Below, piece after piece: positions 2,056 to 25,159 of a DNA stretch of 42,839 bases. Location: IMG/VR virus record IMGVR_UViG_3300020815_000001; one strand, 5' to 3'. The translations under genes and the position numbers were made by a program. The notes under the pieces are model-generated. The model was not told the DNA's origin, ran no database searches, and saw only the letters and a list, made by a program, of their open reading frames with translations. Origin of the DNA: a virus. Each line of letters begins with the position of its first letter. Position 1 is the stretch's first letter.

Positions 2056-3735
2056 TTATTTTCCTATTGCCAAGAAAAAGATTTTCATAGGCTGTGAGTT
2101 TGTGTTTTCCAAAGAAACCTGATTAAGACCAATCGGGTTTGCATGTGGAGCGTAGAGCTGTGAACTCGTTCCGATATATGAGTTGCCAGCAACTACAGAT
2201 CCAAACATCGAAGCAAAGGAAACAGCAAGCTGATAGGTAGCAGCGGTATTTGATGCAATTGTTTGGCTCCCCCACTGAATAATGATACGGCCAAGCCATG
2301 AAGGGAAAACAACATATCCTCCGCCAGCTTCTTGGTAAGTGGCAAAGCCAAGGCCCATTTTTTTTGGCGTGACTATTTTCGCGTCATCGGTAACCGCGTT
2401 AACTTCGGCCTGTGTTGCAATTGCCGCAATACCTGCAGAGCCTTCAGTTGCATTCTTTGAGAAAAAGAAGTCAGACAGAAGCTTTGGAGTTATTGCTGCG
2501 GATGTATTTGTTCCGGCCCCAGCTTCTTGAGAAGTCGCAATTCGTATAACACCAGCTACCGTGGTGGTTGCAGCTACAACTAATGCAGCAAATCTCGCGG
2601 CAAGCTTTTTAGGCGTTATAAATTTGTCGTCAATTGTCCCGTTGTTTGCTTCTGTCTGAGTAGCAACAGCAGAAATTCCCGGGGCACCCTCGCTAGCTGT
2701 TCTTGAATAGAAGAAGCTGGAAAGAGTTGATGGGGTAATAGCAACTGAAGTGTCGGTCCCGCCCCCAGCTTCTACTCCTGTTGCAATCCTTATGATGCCT
2801 TTGACTGTTGTTGATGCGTCAACAACAATAGCCGACAGTCGCTCAGAAAGGCGTCGAGGAGAGATTATTGTCGTGTTGTCAGTCCCCGCCTCGGCAATTG
2901 CCTGTGTTGCAATTGCCGCAATACCTTGAGCAGACTCAGATGCGCGCTTGGTAAAAAACCATGTTGATAGTTTTTGCGGCGTGACGGCAACAGTGTTATT
3001 TGATGAGTCTGCAACTTCAGCAAATGTAGCAAGCTTGACTACACCGGCAACCGACTCTGTTGCTACCTGGATTACGGACGCCAAGAAAATACTTGACCCA
3101 TCTCCATAAATTCCCTGAGTAACGCCAGTTGGAATTTCTGCCCCACTACCGGATGACGTTTTGCAGGTCACGGAAAAAGCGCCAGCGGCACGGTTAACAA
3201 TAAGCCAGTTCTTCCGATAACTAGGCAATATAATTTGTCTATTACCCGTTAGAGTACCTGTAATGATGATTATTGAGCGCGCAGCCTGCAAAGGCGTCAG
3301 CGTCACATTAGCTGTTGACATTACGACAGTGGTGGTTCCAGCGTCTTCCGGCTCCCATTCCGCGCCGCCCGATTCGGGATTGGTTGTATTTCCTGTGGTC
3401 GTGTTACGCCACAAGCCCATACGGTCAGACCTAGAAACTAGAGCGCCGAGAGGATAGCCGCCGTTTTTAGCGACATATGCCGATGACCATACATATTGGC
3501 CGCCAGCGCCGGTATAAACCACATGCTGGCTGATGGCATTAAGCACGCCATTGAAATCTTGCCCACGGGGAGGAATGCCGCCTGCGGGAAGAGGAGTCAT
3601 TGTTGCGAGCGGGAAGCCATAGGTCCACGTCGCCTTTTGAGGTGGATCTGATGGGCCGCGCACTTCGGGAATCGTGTCAATGGTCCCGGATTGAGCATCC
3701 TTTCCGAAGGGGGTAAGAATCAAGTCAGGCTGCAT
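2056..3735 (-). CDS. Tail fibre protein with six tandem ~35-45 aa repeats
   Basis: ATG 3735 is preceded by AAGGAG. There are six copies of G[IV]xxxAT..E...GT....[IV][TS]P..L. The C-terminal part is divergent and AT-richer. It follows the DUF2612/baseplate genes. Confidence 0.8.
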   Translation of the reverse strand: MQPDLILTPFGKDAQSGTIDTIPEVRGPSDPPQKATWTYGFPLATMTPLPAGGIPPRGQDFNGVLNAISQHVVYTGAGGQYVWSSAYVAKNGGYPLGALVSRSDRMGLWRNTTTGNTTNPESGGAEWEPEDAGTTTVVMSTANVTLTPLQAARSIIIITGTLTGNRQIILPSYRKNWLIVNRAAGAFSVTCKTSSGSGAEIPTGVTQGIYGDGSSIFLASVIQVATESVAGVVKLATFAEVADSSNNTVAVTPQKLSTWFFTKRASESAQGIAAIATQAIAEAGTDNTTIISPRRLSERLSAIVVDASTTVKGIIRIATGVEAGGGTDTSVAITPSTLSSFFYSRTASEGAPGISAVATQTEANNGTIDDKFITPKKLAARFAALVVAATTTVAGVIRIATSQEAGAGTNTSAAITPKLLSDFFFSKNATEGSAGIAAIATQAEVNAVTDDAKIVTPKKMGLGFATYQEAGGGYVVFPSWLGRIIIQWGSQTIASNTAATYQLAVSFASMFGSVVAGNSYIGTSSQLYAPHANPIGLNQVSLENTNSQPMKIFFLAIGK

Positions 3736-21900: not shown

Positions 21901-22556
21901 TCCTCCGTCTCTTCACGCTTGAACATGGAAGGCGCGACGATCTCAATTCGTGTCGGCCCGCTGCTTAGGCTTCCATCGCTGTTAGTGTGGTCAACCTTCA
22001 TGTCGGAAGTGATGCCAAGCGCGTCCCGCTCCAGGGTGATGAGCGTCTTCATTGTCTCGGCCAGTTCTTTCATGGTCTTGGTTCTGGCGGGCAGGTCGAT
22101 AACCTTTTGATACAGGTCGTTGCGTCGGTCCTGGCCCTTGTCGTCTTCGGACCTCAGAAGCTCGCCAAGCTCCGCGAATAGATCGCGGTTATCGGTCATC
22201 CCCTCAAGCTCATCCAGCAGCTTGTTGGTGAGGTTGCGGCCCCGTGCAATATCTTTTCTATGGCTGAGCCGAACCTCAGCGATGGATTGCGCGTTTGCCT
22301 CAATGACGGCCCGATCTGTAACAGCGCGCTTTTCTGTTACATCGGGTGTTACAACCTGCCTTGTTACAATGTCTTCAGCCCGCGCTTTGATCTTTGCGGA
22401 CAGGTCTTGAACCCATCCGTATTTCTTCGCCCGCCTGGCGATGGCTACGTGATTTGCCCCCGGGCAAGCGAGTGCGATCTCTCGCAAGGAAAGAAGGCCG
22501 GCCCGGTAGTGCTGCTCGATCCTCTCCCAGTCTGGACCTTTGGTCTCAACCGTCAT
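21897..22556 (-). CDS. terS: Terminase small subunit
   Basis: N-terminal HTH-like WERIEQHYRAGLLSLREIA...IARRAKKYGW followed by a helical oligomerisation region. It lies directly upstream of TerL. Confidence 0.7.
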   Translation of the reverse strand: MTVETKGPDWERIEQHYRAGLLSLREIALACPGANHVAIARRAKKYGWVQDLSAKIKARAEDIVTRQVVTPDVTEKRAVTDRAVIEANAQSIAEVRLSHRKDIARGRNLTNKLLDELEGMTDNRDLFAELGELLRSEDDKGQDRRNDLYQKVIDLPARTKTMKELAETMKTLITLERDALGITSDMKVDHTNSDGSLSSGPTRIEIVAPSMFKREETED

Positions 22557-22568
22557 AAGTGATATTCC

Positions 22569-22916
22569 TTAACTCTTAGGCTTCAGGCCTTCCAGGCAGC
22601 GCTGGTAGATCCATTGGGAGAACTCCTTTACTGGCACTGGTCCTGAGCTGTGATTGGCAAACTGCGCGGCCATGGTGGCCGTCTCATTCAGGTAGGCGCC
22701 CATCTGCTTATTGGAAAGGTTGTTGGTTTCCCTGTAAATGACTTCTAGGGGCATCCCAACGTTGACGCGCTCCATGATGCTTGCGGACATAACGCCAGCA
22801 ACGAAGCAAAACTTCTCGGGCGCGTGGTTGAGATCGGTGGGAATTCCCGTGGACGCCAAAGCAGGCTGACAGGAAACGGAAACGAGCATTGCGGTTATTG
22901 CAAAAAGCCTTTTCAT
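22569..22916 (-). CDS. Secreted/periplasmic small protein (first gene of the late operon)
   Basis: Signal peptide MKRLFAITAMLVSVSCQPALA|ST, 115 aa, 12 nt upstream of terS. Confidence 0.6.
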   Translation of the reverse strand: MKRLFAITAMLVSVSCQPALASTGIPTDLNHAPEKFCFVAGVMSASIMERVNVGMPLEVIYRETNNLSNKQMGAYLNETATMAAQFANHSSGPVPVKEFSQWIYQRCLEGLKPKS

Positions 22917-22966
22917 GTCCTTACCCCCGGCCTGGTCTATTAGGCGTCCAGTTTAAACCCTCACGC

Positions 22967-22998
22967 ATAAAAAAGCCCCAGCGTTTTAAACTGAGGCT
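22967..22998 (-). terminator. Intrinsic terminator downstream of the tRNA block
   Basis: Minus-sense AGCCUCAG-uuuaaaacg-CUGGGGCU followed by UUUUUUA. The G.U pair exists only in the minus-sense transcript; it is C.A on the plus strand. Confidence 0.7.
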
Positions 22999-23077
22999 TA
23001 GTCCGAACTCTTAGCTGTCGGCGCTGTTACCCGCACTTCCCGGGCCGGACATGGTTTTATACGCCCCATGCAGAGTT

Positions 23078-23136
23078 TGGCTTAGGCGGGGGGCAGATCA
23101 ATTCCCCTCTTGGATATTACGCTGCCGCAACCTAAG
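23078..23136 (-). other. tRNA-like minihelix or degenerate tRNA remnant ending in CCA
   Basis: Minus-sense CUUAGGU...GCCUAAG-CCA (7-bp acceptor-like stem including one G.U) encloses 42 nt with a GGGG/CCCC arm. It starts 2 nt after the tRNA-Gly 3' end. It is too short and lacks a canonical T-loop. Confidence 0.3.
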
Positions 23137-23138
23137 TT

Positions 23139-23212
23139 TGGAGCAGGCAGGGAGAATCGAACTCCGCTGTGCTAAGCATGGAAGGCTTGCCGCGCACCTT
23201 GCGCTTACCTGC
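23139..23212 (-). tRNA. tRNA-Gly(UCC)-like, 74 nt with encoded CCA and a compact D-arm
   Basis: Acceptor GCAGGUA/UGCCUGC, discriminator U, CCA. Anticodon loop CUUCCAU and T-loop UUCGAUU. The 3' end resembles E. coli tRNA-Gly(UCC). The D-loop is only about 5 nt, with C.A and C.C mismatches at the stem ends. Confidence 0.7.
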
Positions 23213-23217
23213 GTAAC

Positions 23218-23301
23218 TGGTGCCACCTGATGGAATCGAACCACATAGCCTCGGCAGCGGATTTACAGTCCGCCGTGCGTCCCAGCGCACTATCAGTTGG
23301 C
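23218..23301 (-). tRNA. tRNA-Tyr(GUA), 84 nt, class II-like with encoded CCA and an atypical D-arm
   Basis: Acceptor GCCAACU/AGGUGGC (one A.G mismatch), A73, CCA. Anticodon arm GCGGA-CUGUAAA-UCCGC, an 11-nt variable region and T-loop UUCGAUU. The D region is a 5-bp GUGCG/CGCAC stem preceded by 4 nt. Confidence 0.75.
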
Positions 23302-23308
23302 AAAAACT

Positions 23309-23384
23309 TGGTAGGCCCGTAGGGGCTTGAACCCTCTTCCACCGGTTATGAGCCGGTCGCATCAACCATTAATGCTTCGGGCCT
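23309..23384 (-). tRNA. tRNA with CAU anticodon (elongator Met or lysidine-dependent Ile2), 76 nt with encoded CCA
   Basis: Perfect acceptor AGGCCCG/CGGGCCU (A1:U72), D-arm GCAU-uaaugguug-AUGC, anticodon arm ACCGG-CUCAUAA-CCGGU and T-loop UUCAAGC. Confidence 0.85.
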
Positions 23385-23848
23385 AGTTGATGCAGATGGC
23401 CGGTGCTGATCTCCGGCATATCGGGCTGCCTCTTTCGTCACCCGAAAATCTCATTTTATCGCATCAGCCTGCGCATTCATCTGCATCGGTAAATCAATCG
23501 GTCGAATCAGGTTAATTCGTGGTTCCCCTGATGCTGCCTTGCTTAACCGCCCTATCCAAAGCCACGAGTCTGGAATTAGGTGTACCGCGTCGGCCCGATT
23601 GATTTCCGATAAAGACGATTCCAACACCCGAGGATTCCTCGGCAGTTCCGCATGTGCGGGATGGCGGCGGACTCTGGTCTAGCAGAAATACTCATGCCGC
23701 GTCTTTGGCGCTGGTTGTTCGCGTAGTCCGCATGACGTTTGATTTCCTTATGAATCTCTTCGCGGGATATCGGTACTCGGCCTACACGCAAACAATATCA
23801 CAACCTATCGTATTGTCCGGCGCTCTCCTTCACTCCCGGGAAGATCAT
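23385..23848 (-). ncRNA. Candidate large structured non-coding RNA / structured tRNA-operon leader (no family recognised)
   Basis: 464 nt without a convincing ORF, co-oriented with the flanking genes. Two adjacent perfect long-range helices (10 bp, 23389-98/23478-87; 11 bp, 23491-501/23595-605) plus several local hairpins. Confidence 0.4.
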
Positions 23849-24049
23849 CTATCCCTGCTCAACCCCAATGATCCGCCGGACAGTTGCAGTCTCTTTAAGG
23901 TCAGTCAGGATTGATTGCGCGTGCTCGTCACTGACTGCGTGAAGGTAGGCGCTGAATGTTCCGTCTGCGGTCTTGAAGTCTACTGCGTAAAGACTCCATG
24001 CCACTCCATCGACTACCGCGCTAAGGCTTAGGGTTAGAACCTGGCTCAT
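23849..24049 (-). CDS. Hypothetical early protein (66 aa)
   Basis: The internal ATG 24049 forms an ATGA overlap with the upstream stop. It is the last gene of the early operon. Confidence 0.5.
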   Translation of the reverse strand: MSQVLTLSLSAVVDGVAWSLYAVDFKTADGTFSAYLHAVSDEHAQSILTDLKETATVRRIIGVEQG

Positions 24050-24387
24050 GGCTTCGCCTCGTTCAATGCCTGAGCAAGCGCATGGCATTGGCCAGAAGTA
24101 AGCACGGTGTAGCAGCGAGAGGCCTCTACCGCTTCCATGATCGACTTCATGGTGTGAGTCACCGCTACCGGCGCGGGCTGCTCTTTGAATAGCAACTCCA
24201 TTTCATAGCAGGCAGGATCATTTCGGAGAGGGTCTGTCACTGCTCGCCCATATTCAATCGAACCCGGCTCCCATTCAGACCATGCGGTGAAGTGGTCTTT
24301 CCCATCTACAGCGACACTCGCCTGCGTGAGTATGTTGCGACTCCTGGTCAAGCACGCCACCGGCTCTTGTTTTTTCATGTCGGTCAT
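24046..24387 (-). CDS. Hypothetical early protein (113 aa)
   Basis: ORF in the operon context, starting 1 nt after the upstream stop. Confidence 0.5.
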   Translation of the reverse strand: MTDMKKQEPVACLTRSRNILTQASVAVDGKDHFTAWSEWEPGSIEYGRAVTDPLRNDPACYEMELLFKEQPAPVAVTHTMKSIMEAVEASRCYTVLTSGQCHALAQALNEAKP

Positions 24388-24388
24388 T

Positions 24389-25159
24389 TCAAACCTCTAT
24401 CGTTATTCTGTAGTTGATCGCGTCTTCTAGAATAAGCCTTGCTCTAGCCAGTAGAGCGCGGCCGACCTTGTCGCTTGGGTCTTTTCCTGACTTGTAATCA
24501 ATCGCCGCCTCCTGAATCACTAACGTCTTCTCGCGCTGCCATGCGCGATGGGCTTCAGCTGGGCCGTCGAAGTGCCCAAGGTGTTTTAGCCGGCCATTAG
24601 AGTTGCAATAGGCGCGATACTTGCCGCGCTTCTCCATGAATGAGACACCAAGAGGAAGATCGCCGCGCGAAGCCCTGCATGACGTAAATAGCGAGTTGAT
24701 TCGACGAGGAACGAAGCAGCAATGTTCTGGCGAATAAACCTTGTTCCCAAGGCTAATAATGTCCTTGTCAATCTCAAAGAACATGCCGAACGAATCTTTA
24801 TCGCTATATCCTTGCTGCTGATTGCACCATTCCGCGAATTCCTGAAATCCAGAGAAGCCATTCGTAACGCCGATGTAGGACGGCCCGTACATCTGGTATT
24901 TCCCGCCCGGAAGGCAGCGCGCATTGATCTTGTTCCAGAGGCCTGATGCTCGACTGTGATGCGTTATGGTTTTCCCTGGCTGGCGCTCCTTCCAGGTCTT
25001 CATCCATAGCCCTGATTCCGACTTTCGATCTGGCTGACCATGGATATTCAGCCTTTTCAGATCAGCATAAAGAATTTTGCCTGCCTCCCGCTCAACGCTC
25101 AACATCGGTTTATTGGTCATGGCTGCGCCCCGGCTTAGATCTAAAGGCAAGCCACACAT
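24389..25159 (-). CDS. AP2-domain protein with a degenerate HNH-like module (homing-endonuclease-like)
   Basis: C-terminal LPLGVSFMEKRGKYRAYCNSNGRLKHLGHFDGPAEAHRAW is AP2-like. The central EIDKDI..YSPEHCCFVPRRIN resembles the HNH_3 layout, but the His residues are replaced. SD AAGGGGGG precedes ATG 25159; an alternative ATG lies at 25120. Confidence 0.55.
   Translation of the reverse strand: MCGLPLDLSRGAAMTNKPMLSVEREAGKILYADLKRLNIHGQPDRKSESGLWMKTWKERQPGKTITHHSRASGLWNKINARCLPGGKYQMYGPSYIGVTNGFSGFQEFAEWCNQQQGYSDKDSFGMFFEIDKDIISLGNKVYSPEHCCFVPRRINSLFTSCRASRGDLPLGVSFMEKRGKYRAYCNSNGRLKHLGHFDGPAEAHRAWQREKTLVIQEAAIDYKSGKDPSDKVGRALLARARLILEDAINYRITIEV

What the first reader, a model, noticed from the sequence alone, without database searches (positions are those of the whole stretch)
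23385..23848. A ~460-nt ORF-poor, helix-dense segment fused to the 5' side of the phage tRNA cluster: candidate undescribed large structured RNA
This is by far the longest non-coding stretch in an otherwise tightly packed genome, where most genes overlap by ATGA. It lies between the stop of the last early gene (23849) and the 5' end of the CAU tRNA (23384), and is co-oriented with both.

The only ORFs here are unconvincing. One is a TTG-initiated, Arg-rich 71-aa frame without an SD. The other is an antisense frame that runs into the neighbouring gene.

The sequence contains two adjacent perfect long-range helices:
- GATGCAGATG 23389..23398 pairs with CATCTGCATC 23478..23487. This closes about 80 nt holding three local hairpins, including GCCGG/CCGGC at 23399..23417 and AAAAT-gag-ATTTT, in a cloverleaf-like arrangement ending 4 nt from the tRNA.
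- AAATCAATCGG 23491..23501 pairs with CCGATTGATTT 23595..23605. This closes 93 nt holding a nested TCGTGG/CCACGA helix (23517..23522/23562..23567) and permuted GGTTAA/TTAACC and ATCAGG/CCTGAT complementarities with pseudoknot potential.

Further hairpins are CCGAGG-att-CCTCGG (23628..23642) and CCGC-atgt-GCGG (23648..23659). Direct repeats TCCGCATG and TTGATTTCC also occur.

Known giant ornate RNAs (GOLLD, ROOL) are characteristically found next to tRNA genes in phage genomes. This element is shorter and I recognise no known family in it.
Basis: partly seen in the sequence, partly recalled or inferred. Interest (0 to 1): 0.8.

Follow-up and report, generated by a model that had tools for sequence, protein, structure and literature searches.

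The report
Conserved tRNA-shaped phage RNA module
The half of this gap next to the tRNA genes encodes a ~100-nt tRNA-shaped RNA preceded by a long hairpin; this module recurs almost letter for letter in hundreds of phages and prophages (phage HK620 has it, lambda keeps a relic) but is in no RNA database, so it looks like a real, widespread and undescribed phage RNA of unknown function.

Summary
Both perfect long-range helices are at the stated coordinates, and both are evolutionarily conserved RNA helices.

The 464-nt gap is not one large RNA. It is a composite, read here 5'->3' on the - strand:
- 23848-23798: a 16-codon relic of a deleted gene.
- About 180 nt with no homologues and no significant folding, apart from a small conserved hairpin at 23660-23648.
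- 23616-23480: a ~137-nt long hairpin ("helix A").
- 23487-23389: a ~100-nt cloverleaf, ending 4 nt before tRNA-Met.

The cloverleaf has a 7-10-bp closing stem, a hairpin with loop GGCUGA, a variable arm, and a hairpin with loop AGAUCAGCA stacked directly on the closing stem.

Carriers include HK620, a 46-kb lytic coliphage (Bas77) and an N4-like phage. Lambda keeps helix A and a degenerate remnant just after tR'.

Covariation is strong for the closing stem and for helix A, and G-U pairs place the RNA on the tRNA strand. Rfam 15, RefSeq annotation and the literature searches gave nothing.

Best reading: a processed, stable, tRNA-body-like small RNA whose middle arm is an exchangeable payload. 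Its function is unknown.

The parts
23389..23487 (-). Cloverleaf RNA, the conserved family member. It consists of closing stem P1, hairpin 1, a variable arm and hairpin 3.
   Evidence: Covariance model R1 gives its single window hit at 23388-23488(-): 82.8 bits, E 2e-21. Fold z = -3.55. BLAST similarity to other loci is confined to 23493-23386.
23478..23487 (-). P1 5' arm, GAUGCAGAUG. It pairs with 23389-23398.
   Evidence: Perfect 10-bp repeat. Across the family the 7 inner pairs are paired in 95-100% of 93 anchor-defined arm pairs, with up to 4 Watson-Crick pair types per position. 0 of 500 shuffles reach the observed covariation.
23389..23398 (-). P1 3' arm, CAUCUGCAUC. tRNA-Met starts 4 nt downstream.
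23460..23479 (-). Ultra-conserved 20-mer UGAAUGCGCAGGCUGAUGCG. It covers the last 2 nt of P1, the AAU linker and hairpin 1 (stem 23470-23473/23460-23463, loop GGCUGA 23464-23469).
   Evidence: Exact matches in more than 120 viral contigs and more than 120 species genomes, both scans capped. The stem shows compensatory changes in diverged copies, GCGUA/UACGC and GCACA/UGUGC.
23418..23459 (-). Variable ('payload') arm, at the anticodon-arm position. It holds AAAAU-GAG-AUUUU and CGGG...CCCG.
   Evidence: This segment is 30-170 nt long and unrelated in sequence between family members. In HK620 it is 34/34 identical to the anticodon-arm position of a tRNA-like gene of Salmonella phage SW16-7.
23399..23417 (-). 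Hairpin 3, GCCGG-AGAUCAGCA-CCGGC. It abuts the P1 3' arm with no spacer, giving a 5+7-bp coaxial stack. Its loop is complementary to the hairpin 1 loop.
   Evidence: Loop-loop complementarity is GCUGAU/AUCAGC, and one diverged copy carries the compensated pair GGUGAU/AUCACC.
23480..23616 (-). Helix A, a long hairpin. The 5' strand is 23595-23616, the variable apical region is 23502-23594, and the 3' strand is 23480-23501, running straight into and overlapping the P1 5' arm.
   Evidence: Perfect 11-bp core. Fold z = -3.28. In 11 unique loci of the window's sub-lineage, the 10 nt inside two sequence anchors are 99% paired, with up to 5 pair types per position. An analogous helix occurs in about a third to a half of all loci, and lambda has one just after tR'.
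23648..23660 (-). Small hairpin CCCGC-ACAU-GCGG, upstream of helix A.
   Evidence: A hairpin at the same position, with covarying stem (CCGC/GCGG, CAGC/GCUG, CCGA/UCGG, GCCGC/GCGGC), is seen in 8 related metagenome and viral loci.
23705..23716 (-). Linear box AACCAGCGCCAA.
   Evidence: AACCAACGCCAA lies at the corresponding place in L279, L282 and L284. This is weak evidence and its meaning is unknown.
23628..23642 (-). Hairpin CCGAGG-AAU-CCUCGG, specific to this window.
   Evidence: Present in the window but absent from the related loci.
23798..23848 (-). 16-codon relic ORF (MIFPGVKESAGQYDRL*). It is a remnant of the 3' end of a gene that is intact in a relative.
   Evidence: 23826-23789 matches L010 6343-6379, the end of a 79-aa gene there. 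L010 carries ~2.1 kb of genes that are missing here.
23309..23384 (-). tRNA-Met(CAU), co-transcribed neighbour. RNase P cleavage at its 5' end would define the 3' end of the cloverleaf.
23218..23301 (-). tRNA-Tyr(GUA)
23139..23212 (-). Degenerate tRNA-Gly(UCC)-like gene.
   Evidence: Found by ARAGORN only at a relaxed threshold. BLAST similarity to a phage tRNA.
22973..22999 (-). Intrinsic terminator that closes the non-coding RNA/tRNA unit, ahead of the packaging genes.
   Evidence: Conserved in relative L010 with a stem change on one side.

Best explanation
**What it is.** The tRNA-proximal ~230 nt of the gap encode a two-domain non-coding RNA module on the - strand.
- Helix A (23616-23480) is a long hairpin.
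- It runs straight into a ~100-nt cloverleaf (23487-23389) that copies the body plan of a tRNA: a 7-bp (here 10-bp) 'acceptor' stem, a 3-nt linker, a 'D-like' hairpin, a variable arm at the anticodon-arm position, and a 5-bp 'T-like' hairpin stacked directly on the acceptor stem.
- The two invariant hairpin loops (GCUGAU and AUCAGC) are complementary. They probably kiss, taking the place of the tRNA elbow.

**What is shown.** The module belongs to a very widespread, extremely conserved and unannotated family of phages and prophages of Proteobacteria.

**What is inferred.**
- In this phage it is transcribed as the tail of the leftward early operon together with three tRNAs, and ends at the terminator at 22999-22973.
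- tRNA-processing enzymes cut it out. RNase P at the tRNA-Met 5' end, 4 nt downstream, would make its 3' end. Cleavage in or at the foot of helix A, by RNase III or RNase P, would make its 5' end.
- The product is a stable small RNA acting in trans.
- The conserved body gives stability and docks on some highly conserved host component. The variable arm is an exchangeable payload.
For: **Family membership (shown).**
- The exact 20-mer occurs in more than 120 viral contigs and more than 120 species genomes, both scans capped.
- Model R1 finds 109 copies in 100 loci and exactly one in the window, at 82.8 bits.

**RNA structure (shown).**
- With P1 arms defined only by flanking sequence anchors, the 7 inner pairs are 95-100% paired, with GC, CG, AU and UA all seen at a single position.
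- On a MAFFT alignment, 7 P1 pairs change on both sides and 0 of 500 shuffles match; sliding the partner columns drops pairing from 95% to 23-51%.
- Both hairpin stems show compensatory changes in diverged copies.
- Helix A's inner 10 bp are 99% paired in 11 unique lineage members, against a shuffle mean of 56%. Family-wide, 33 of 112 loci have at least 15 of 21 Watson-Crick pairs, against 5 of 1120 shuffles.

**Strand (shown).**
- G-U versus A-C counts are 25 to 4 in P1 and 59 to 10 in helix A.
- Nearby tRNAs are co-oriented in 20 of 22 loci.

**A discrete RNA gene rather than a mere leader.**
- L110 and L122 have TTGACA-18-TACATT ending about 10 nt before P1, and an intrinsic terminator right after the element.
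- In lytic coliphage Bas77 the module lies antisense to the flanking tail genes, between a + strand promoter-like site and a terminator hairpin.
- 17 of 97 loci have a terminator within 90 nt 3' of P1, against 8 in control windows.

**tRNA analogy.**
- The dimensions are 7 bp + 5 bp stacked with no spacer.
- A tRNA starts within about 5 nt of P1 in the window, L027 and L104.
- Whole or partial tRNAs sit inside the variable arm in L106, L125, L092 and L042.
- The HK620 variable arm is 34/34 identical to the arm that replaces the anticodon arm in a tRNA-like gene of Salmonella phage SW16-7.

**Horizontal spread.** The same variant, including its variable arm, is found in a prophage with a P22-type nutL, a 46-kb lytic coliphage and an N4-like phage.

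**Not coding.** No gene was called. The 71-aa ORF has no Pfam or PHROG hit and no homologue among 5.8 billion proteins.
Against: - There are no expression or end-mapping data, so the transcript, its processing sites and its stability are all inferred.
- No promoter-like site was found in 22500-24500. Transcription here depends on read-through from the early operon.
- Most family members sit in leaders of antiterminated operons, after Q/qut/tR' or after nutL, often between terminators. That also fits a cis-acting role.
- Evidence for the kissing loops is thin. There is one compensated variant. Single loop-1 mutants are rare, and most are uncompensated or only wobble-compatible.
- Sampling was anchored on the exact 20-mer, so the invariance of hairpin 1 in the main set is by construction.
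- In the lambda-type class, helix A sequesters the whole P1 5' arm. The two folds may therefore be alternatives rather than neighbours.
- No partner or target has been identified.
Confidence: 0.6

Rival explanations
1. It is a cis-acting leader element that controls transcription elongation or termination. It could work like a put-type processive antiterminator RNA, or like a riboswitch in which P1 and helix A are alternative folds. It would act on the terminators that follow it; here that is 22999-22973, in front of the late genes.
For: - Typical positions are after Q/qut/tR' and before the holin, or after nutL and before an N-like gene.
- Terminators often follow within 90 nt.
- L110 and L122 read promoter, element, terminator, hairpin, gene.
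- In the lambda-type class the helix A 3' strand and the P1 5' arm are the same nucleotides, giving an X...X'...X layout.
- Extreme conservation across alpha-, beta- and gammaproteobacterial hosts would suit binding to RNA polymerase.
- In the window the module lies between the early operon and a terminator that precedes the packaging genes.
Against: - In Bas77 the module is antisense to all neighbouring genes, so there is nothing co-oriented to antiterminate.
- It often occurs in phages that already encode Q or N.
- It is absent from HK022 and differs in architecture from put, which is two stem-loops of ~70 nt.
- A payload arm shared with a tRNA-like gene, and tRNAs nested in or abutting the element, point to a tRNA-type processed RNA.
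- In the window's lineage, helix A and the 7-bp P1 core overlap by only 3 nt, so both can form together.
Confidence: 0.2
2. It is pure processing or stability punctuation. Helix A would be an RNase III site and the cloverleaf an RNase P/E-recognised fold. Together they only cut the long untranslated leader and protect the ends of the neighbouring tRNAs or mRNA, with no function for the released RNA.
For: - Helix A is a ~20-bp duplex with small internal loops.
- tRNAs abut the element.
- Similar hairpins flank tRNA remnants elsewhere, with T-arm-like sequence inside the helix A loop in L024, L060 and L078.
- From my own knowledge, the lambda N leader has a known RNase III hairpin.
Against: - Letter-perfect conservation of two loops across classes of bacteria is far more than a cleavage signal needs.
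- Stand-alone promoter-element-terminator units exist.
- Conserved payload arms are shared across unrelated phages.
Confidence: 0.12
3. It is a DNA-level element, such as a miniature mobile element, a recombination site or a protein-binding site, with inverted repeats. Its wide spread would reflect mobility rather than RNA function.
For: - Near-identical copies occur in unrelated phages.
- The ends are conserved and the middle is variable.
- An HNH endonuclease gene lies ~900 nt upstream in the window.
Against: - The outermost arms (P1, inner helix A) are the variable, compensating parts, whereas transposon ends would be conserved.
- Non-Watson-Crick positions are strongly G-U rather than A-C, which indicates pairing in a transcript of one strand.
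- No recurrent endonuclease or transposase neighbour appears in the context survey.
Confidence: 0.04
4. It is a small protein-coding gene (the 71-aa TTG ORF 23576-23791 or the 58-aa ORF 23451-23627), or the helices arose by chance.
For: The ORFs exist.
Against: - No family hit and no homologue.
- No gene was called.
- Conservation follows helices, not reading frames.
- The chance expectation for more than 240 exact 20-mer hits is negligible.
Confidence: 0.01

Closest known systems
tRNA (and engineered 'tRNA scaffolds' used to stabilise recombinant RNAs; the latter from my own knowledge)
   Same: - A four-way cloverleaf with a 7-bp closing stem.
- A 5-bp 3' hairpin stacked directly on that stem, giving a 12-bp minihelix.
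- A short linker to a 5' hairpin.
- Loop-loop contact between the two side hairpins.
- The middle arm is the variable part.
- It sits in tRNA clusters and can abut or enclose tRNAs.
- One payload arm is shared with a tRNA-like gene.
   Different: - It has no D-loop or T-loop consensus, no anticodon loop and no CCA.
- ARAGORN and Rfam tRNA models do not recognise it.
- The elbow would be a Watson-Crick kissing complex rather than a T-loop/D-loop interaction.
Bacterial and phage Y RNAs (YrlA), which are tRNA-like domains tethered to Ro60 (PMC4201824)
   Same: A modular non-coding RNA with a tRNA-mimicking domain closed by a 5'/3' stem, found in bacteria and phages.
   Different: - YrlA carries real D- and T-loop consensus, a GNCGAA(N)G Ro-binding motif and a neighbouring Ro60 gene.
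- Here the motif is absent.
- No Ro60-like family appears among the 25 commonest families of the neighbouring genes.
HK022 put RNA, a cis-acting processive antiterminator (PMC9378689)
   Same: A phage RNA element in the untranslated leader of an operon with downstream terminators, and highly conserved.
   Different: - put is ~70 nt, two stem-loops in a V shape, and has no closing stem.
- HK022 has no match to the model.
- The element also occurs antisense to its neighbouring genes.
Phage lambda late leader just 3' of tR', and the HK620 pR'-'tQ' interval
   Same: It is homologous. Lambda 44.79-44.87 kb carries helix A (CACAACAGGUAAGAGCAUUG/CAGUGCUCUUUCCGUUGUG) followed by a degenerate cloverleaf. 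HK620 15.99-16.25 kb carries the full module.
   Different: - These regions have only been annotated as promoter, qut and terminators.
- No RNA element is annotated there.
- The window's phage has no recognisable Q among the 30 proteins scanned (the leftward early genes, the first rightward genes and the packaging/head genes), and places the module at the end of the early-left operon.
GOLLD, ROOL and other large ornate RNAs near phage tRNAs; T4 'species 1/2' stable RNAs in the tRNA cluster (the latter from my own knowledge)
   Same: Orphan structured RNAs encoded next to tRNA genes in phages, with unknown function.
   Different: - No Rfam match.
- The conserved unit is ~100 nt plus a hairpin, not 500-800 nt.
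- The hosts are Proteobacteria.
- Homology to the T4 RNAs could not be tested.

Membership tests
New family defined here (covariance model R1) | P1 (at least 7 bp), AAU linker, hairpin GCGCA-GGCUGA-UGCGC, variable arm, hairpin GCCGG-AGAUCAGCA-CCGGC abutting the P1 3' arm | tested here: met
   Window 23388-23488(-): 82.8 bits, E 2e-21, full-length match. The only deviation is one G.A at the base of hairpin 1.
New family defined here | Long hairpin (helix A) whose 3' strand runs into the P1 5' arm | tested here: met
   23616-23480. Covariation in the sub-lineage. Present in roughly a third to a half of family loci, so it is a frequent companion rather than an obligatory part.
tRNA (RF00005) | D-loop and T-loop consensus, anticodon arm, recognised by tRNA models | tested here: not met
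   ARAGORN and Rfam hit only 23309-23384 and 23218-23301. At relaxed ARAGORN thresholds no tRNA is called in the part of the element scanned (23389-23420).
YrlA / bacterial Y RNA | GNCGAA(N)G motif near the 5' end and tRNA-consensus D/T loops | tested here: not met
   The motif, as described in PMC4201824, is absent from the window element and from the consensus.
YrlA / bacterial Y RNA | Ro60 (Rsr) gene within a few kb on the same strand | tested here: not met
   No Ro60-like family appears in the window's neighbouring proteins or among the 25 commonest PHROG families of ~100 upstream and ~100 downstream genes.
HK022 put RNA | ~70-nt pair of stem-loops just downstream of early promoters; present in HK022 | tested here: not met
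   The best R1 score in HK022 24-40.7 kb is 14.8 bits, at L291 9580-9695, several kb downstream of the immunity region where put sites lie. The architecture differs.
HK022 put RNA | Confers terminator read-through in cis through the RNA polymerase beta' zinc-binding domain | not testable with these tools
   Needs in vitro or in vivo transcription assays.
C4 antisense RNA clan (RF01695 and relatives) | Match to the Rfam models | tested here: not met
   No hit in the window. In L019 a genuine C4 lies 2.4 kb away from the element and on the other strand.
GOLLD / ROOL | Match to the Rfam models; 500-800-nt multi-domain RNA | tested here: not met
   No hit at E<=10. The conserved structure here spans about 230-270 nt in separable modules.
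RNase III / RNase P substrate | Cleavage at helix A and at the foot of P1 or the tRNA-Met 5' end | not testable with these tools
   Inferred from geometry only: a ~20-bp duplex, a 12-bp minihelix and a 4-nt spacer to the tRNA.

The most novel reading that the evidence does not exclude
This is a previously unrecognised class of phage RNA: a tRNA-body surrogate that displays interchangeable 'payload' arms.
- Its elbow is built from an invariant Watson-Crick kissing pair.
- It moves horizontally among temperate and lytic phages of alpha-, beta- and gammaproteobacteria.
- Its invariant loops dock on a universally conserved host machine (RNase P, ribosome, RNA polymerase or a tRNA-binding enzyme), or link copies into multimers.
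- It would serve as a decoy or delivery vehicle in host takeover or counter-defence, for instance against tRNA-targeting immunity.
Probability: 0.25. Interest if true: 0.9.

Novelty: new variant of a known kind. Interest (0 to 1): 0.8.

Why it matters
If this RNA is as undescribed as the databases suggest, it is one of the most widespread and best-conserved orphan RNAs of phages of Proteobacteria.
- It is present in tractable systems: HK620, lytic coliphage Bas77, N4-like coliphages and about 2% of complete E. coli genomes for one variant alone. Lambda carries a relic in its late leader.
- A 20-nt core that is letter-perfect from Rhizobium to Pseudomonas to Escherichia implies contact with something universal.
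- The payload arm shared with a true tRNA-like gene suggests that phages use tRNA-shaped chassis to present other RNA modules.
- It also explains a stretch of the lambdoid 'moron' region that has only been read as promoters and terminators.
- It would correct spurious small ORF annotations in several phage records.

Tried and rejected
**Known RNA families.** Rfam 15 was run on the window at gathering thresholds, on 22900-24000 at E<=10, and on 15 family loci. It found only tRNAs, plus C4 and isrK elsewhere.

**Close relatives at the DNA level.**
- Megablast and blastn of the region against 50,697 phage records matched only the tRNAs.
- The source contig and a Logan contig are 100% identical here, so they give no variation.
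- Relatives found through the small terminase subunit lack tRNAs and lack the gap.
- Relatives found through the 66-aa gene showed that the gap plus tRNAs replaces ~120 nt in L010, but carry no homologue of the element.

**Coding.** PHROG and Pfam scans and a 5.8-billion-protein search with the 71-aa ORF were negative.

**Other candidate identities.**
- YrlA/Y RNA was rejected on its motif and on gene context.
- AgvB/AsxR anti-sRNAs share the same 'moron' region and a CACAACA motif, but they are 51-60-nt convergent Hfq sRNAs with their own terminators.
- Pas sRNAs are Hfq sRNAs with terminators next to structural genes.
- put RNA was rejected because HK022 is negative.
- P22 does not carry the element.

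**Association with the 66-aa gene (phrog_10509).** It is adjacent in only 3 of ~250 loci.

**Loop-loop covariation by targeted scans.** Variants are rare and mostly uncompensated, so the test is inconclusive.

**Literature.** Searches by sequence and by topic found no description. Subscription-only papers were not searchable.

**boxA resemblance.** The lambda-type helix A 3' strand contains UGCUCUUU, like rrn boxA. The resemblance is class-specific and absent from the window, so I did not pursue it.
Full report
**1. The observation**

Genes in this part of the window run on the - strand. ARAGORN and Rfam place tRNA-Met(CAU) at 23309-23384 and tRNA-Tyr(GUA) at 23218-23301. A third, degenerate tRNA-Gly(UCC) at 23139-23212 appears only at a relaxed threshold. 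An intrinsic terminator lies at 22999-22973.

Upstream, a 66/79-aa gene (phrog_10509) ends at 23849. Before it come an HNH endonuclease gene and the leftward early genes (RecT, exonuclease). Downstream are a 115-aa secreted protein, the small and large terminase subunits and the portal.

The whole 464 nt does not fold unusually well (z = -1.67). The two helix-bounded pieces do: 23389-23487 has z = -3.55 and 23480-23616 has z = -3.28. The 5' part, 23617-23797, does not (z = -1.76).

**2. Close relatives**

The source contig (JGI Ga0226662_10000091) and a Logan contig are identical here, and no gene was called in the gap. A relative with an 86%-identical 66-aa gene (L010) shares only two segments with this region: 23826-23789 and the terminator segment 23028-22968.
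- In L010 those two segments are ~120 nt apart. Here they are ~760 nt apart. So the stretch 23789-23030, leader plus tRNAs, is an inserted module.
- The shared segment 23826-23789 is the end of a 79-aa gene in L010.
- In the window it survives as a 16-codon relic ORF at 23848-23798.

**3. A widespread family**

A 20-nt identity between the window and an otherwise unrelated non-coding region (L012) led to the core UGAAUGCGCAGGCUGAUGCG, at window 23479-23460 on the - strand. The species are gamma-, beta- and alphaproteobacteria, plus a few MAGs from other phyla.

The instances share one architecture:
- closing stem P1;
- an AAU linker;
- hairpin GCGCA-GGCUGA-UGCGC;
- a variable arm of 30-170 nt;
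- hairpin GCCGG-AGAUCAGCA-CCGGC, joined without spacer to the P1 3' arm.

A covariance model built from 34 of them scores the window once, at 23388-23488(-), with 82.8 bits and E 2e-21. It finds 109 copies in 100 loci.

No Rfam family matches any tested instance. RefSeq annotates nothing under the HK620-type copy in 108 E. coli genomes. Five literature searches found no description.

**4. Evidence for RNA structure and strand**

I defined the two P1 arms only by their positions next to conserved sequence, so complementarity played no part in choosing them.
- The seven inner pairs are paired in 95-100% of 93 distinct arm pairs. Position 6, for example, is GC 51, CG 15, AU 11 and UA 12.
- On a MAFFT alignment, 7 P1 pairs show changes on both sides and no shuffle out of 500 reaches the observed covariation. 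Sliding the partner columns drops pairing from 95% to 23-51%.
- Diverged second copies show compensatory changes in hairpin 1 (GCGUA/UACGC, GCACA/UGUGC) and in hairpin 3.
- Non-Watson-Crick positions are G-U far more often than A-C: 25 to 4 in P1 and 59 to 10 in helix A. So the pairing is in a transcript of the strand that also carries the tRNAs.

The two invariant loops are mutually complementary (GCUGAU/AUCAGC). One diverged copy has GGUGAU with AUCACC. Targeted scans found only rare single mutants, mostly uncompensated. I therefore treat the kissing contact as an inference.

**5. Helix A**

In many loci the P1 5' arm is preceded by, and partly or wholly shared with, the 3' strand of a long hairpin. 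A metagenome scan for the window's own sub-lineage returned 14 loci.
- In the 11 unique ones that keep both sequence anchors (GUCU[UG][UC]AUCGG and ACCGAUGCAGA), the 10 nt just inside the anchors are 99% paired, with up to five pair types per position. The shuffle mean is 56% and the shuffle maximum 80%.
- The window's 11-bp perfect repeat is this inner helix.
- The apical 24-150 nt are not conserved.
- The same loci conserve a small covarying hairpin (window 23660-23648), and three of them also conserve a box AACCAACGCCAA (window 23716-23705).

**6. Where the family lives**

- Lambda has helix A and a degenerate cloverleaf immediately after tR'.
- HK620 has the full module between qut/tR' and its annotated 'tQ' terminator, ahead of the holin gene.
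- Among ~100 viral loci, the nearest co-oriented upstream genes are often Q-like antiterminators or CI-type repressors. The nearest downstream genes are often holins or N-like proteins.
- One group has a boxA and a boxB hairpin of the type I recall from P22 nutL (the boxB identification is from memory) just upstream of the element.
- tRNAs lie within 1.5 kb in 22 of 122 loci, and are co-oriented in 20 of those 22.
- The module also occurs in lytic coliphage Bas77 and an N4-like phage, with the same variable arm as in a prophage.
- In Bas77 it is antisense to the flanking tail genes, between a promoter-like site and a terminator hairpin.
- L110 and L122 have a strong promoter-like site ending ~10 nt before P1 and a terminator right after the element.
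- P22 and HK022 lack it.

**7. The tRNA analogy**

The dimensions reproduce the upper half of a tRNA: a 7-bp closing stem, a 5-bp 3' hairpin stacked on it, a short linker to the 5' hairpin, and the variable arm in the middle.
- tRNAs abut the element in the window (4 nt), L027 and L104. Some variable arms contain a whole tRNA or tRNA arms (L106, L125, L092, L042).
- The HK620 variable arm, GCAGGAGAGCUUCGGAAGAACAAGGUGCCUG, is identical over 34 nt to the arm that replaces the anticodon arm in a tRNA-like gene of Salmonella phage SW16-7. The same 34-nt match occurs in four other large Salmonella phages (SKML-39, P46FS4, SP-9-14). The SW16-7 gene has a normal acceptor stem, D arm, T arm and CCA.
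- So the same payload is mounted either on a real tRNA body or on this cloverleaf.

**8. Interpretation**

Shown:
- The tRNA-proximal ~230-270 nt are conserved RNA structure on the - strand.
- They belong to a large unannotated family.
- The rest of the gap is a gene relic plus lineage-specific sequence.
- There is no evidence for coding.

Inferred:
- The module is co-transcribed with the tRNAs from the early-left operon. No promoter-like site or terminator intervenes.
- It is excised by tRNA-type processing, and the product is a stable trans-acting RNA.
- The conserved body docks on a conserved host component, and the middle arm is the payload.

The main rival is a cis-acting role in elongation or termination control. 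The leader locations and the helix A/P1 overlap favour that reading. The antisense stand-alone copies and the tRNA-linked features count against it.

**9. Verdict**

The finding is real and more interesting than a leader sequence, but it is not a GOLLD-like giant RNA. It is a new family of tRNA-shaped phage RNA plus a companion hairpin. Its function is unknown, and it can be tested directly in HK620, Bas77 or E. coli lysogens.

Noticed in passing
window 23139-23212 (-): A third, degenerate tRNA-Gly(UCC)-like gene with a reduced D arm follows tRNA-Tyr. Default ARAGORN and Rfam miss it; aragorn -ps85 finds it. It has BLAST similarity to a 'tRNA-Cys' of Pseudomonas phage PPSC2.
   Followed up: partly
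window 23798-23848 (-) versus L010 4201-6379: Relative L010 carries ~2.1 kb with five genes between the 66-aa gene and the conserved segment. The window keeps only the last ~11 codons of the final gene, as a 16-codon ORF that starts on the stop codon of the 66-aa gene. This is a deletion scar.
   Followed up: partly
L292 378-466 (Salmonella phage SW16-7, OR228402 152193-152278): This is annotated 'tRNA-Pro', but ARAGORN calls it tRNA-??? with a 2-nt 'anticodon'. It is a tRNA-like gene whose anticodon arm is replaced by a 31-nt arm identical to the HK620 cloverleaf payload. The same 34-nt match is in SKML-39, P46FS4 and SP-9-14.
   Followed up: partly
L134 990-1110 (lambda J02459 ~44790-44910): The 3' strand of lambda's helix A reads CAGUGCUCUUUCCGUUGUG. 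Its UGCUCUUU resembles the rrn/nut boxA core, and the GU-rich tail resembles boxC. Several other classes have CGCUCUU-type strands. The window's helix A does not.
   Followed up: no
L072 7670-7779 (-): In this diverged second copy, the hairpin 3 loop reads GGGAUCACCUCC, identical to the 3' end (anti-Shine-Dalgarno region) of 16S rRNA. It is paired with a loop 1 of GUGGUGA.
   Followed up: no
L275 2000-3320 (Escherichia phage nithesis, PV252060 ~34.9-36.2 kb) and L274 2088-2708 (Bas77): Strings of 32-46-aa 'hypothetical proteins', and a 160-aa ORF in Bas77, are annotated over and around the RNA module in a ~1.3-kb ORF-poor stretch. They are probably spurious calls.
   Followed up: no
L012 2643-3658: A ~1-kb untranslated leader follows a strong promoter-like site (TTGACA-17-TACAGT) next to a Cro-like gene. 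It contains the cloverleaf (3374-3563) upstream of a homologue of the window's 66-aa gene. That gene is also directly followed by helix A in L286.
   Followed up: partly
L094 11276-12093 (-), L068 3141-3694, L133 1240-1700 (HK620): Modules are often tandem. Two or three cloverleaves and several helix-A-type hairpins occur in a row, and the P1 3' arm of one unit serves as the 5' strand of the next hairpin.
   Followed up: partly
Genome-contig loci L172, L176, L187, L201, L203, L210, L228: The exact 20-mer also turns up in MAGs labelled Flavobacterium, Coriobacteriia, Geobacteraceae, Acidobacteriota, Phycisphaerales and Pontiellaceae. This is either real spread beyond Proteobacteria or binning contamination.
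   Followed up: no
window 24389-25159 (-): An HNH endonuclease with an AP2-like DNA-binding region (phrog_953, E 8e-54) lies ~900 nt upstream of the RNA/tRNA module. No such neighbour recurs in other loci.
   Followed up: partly
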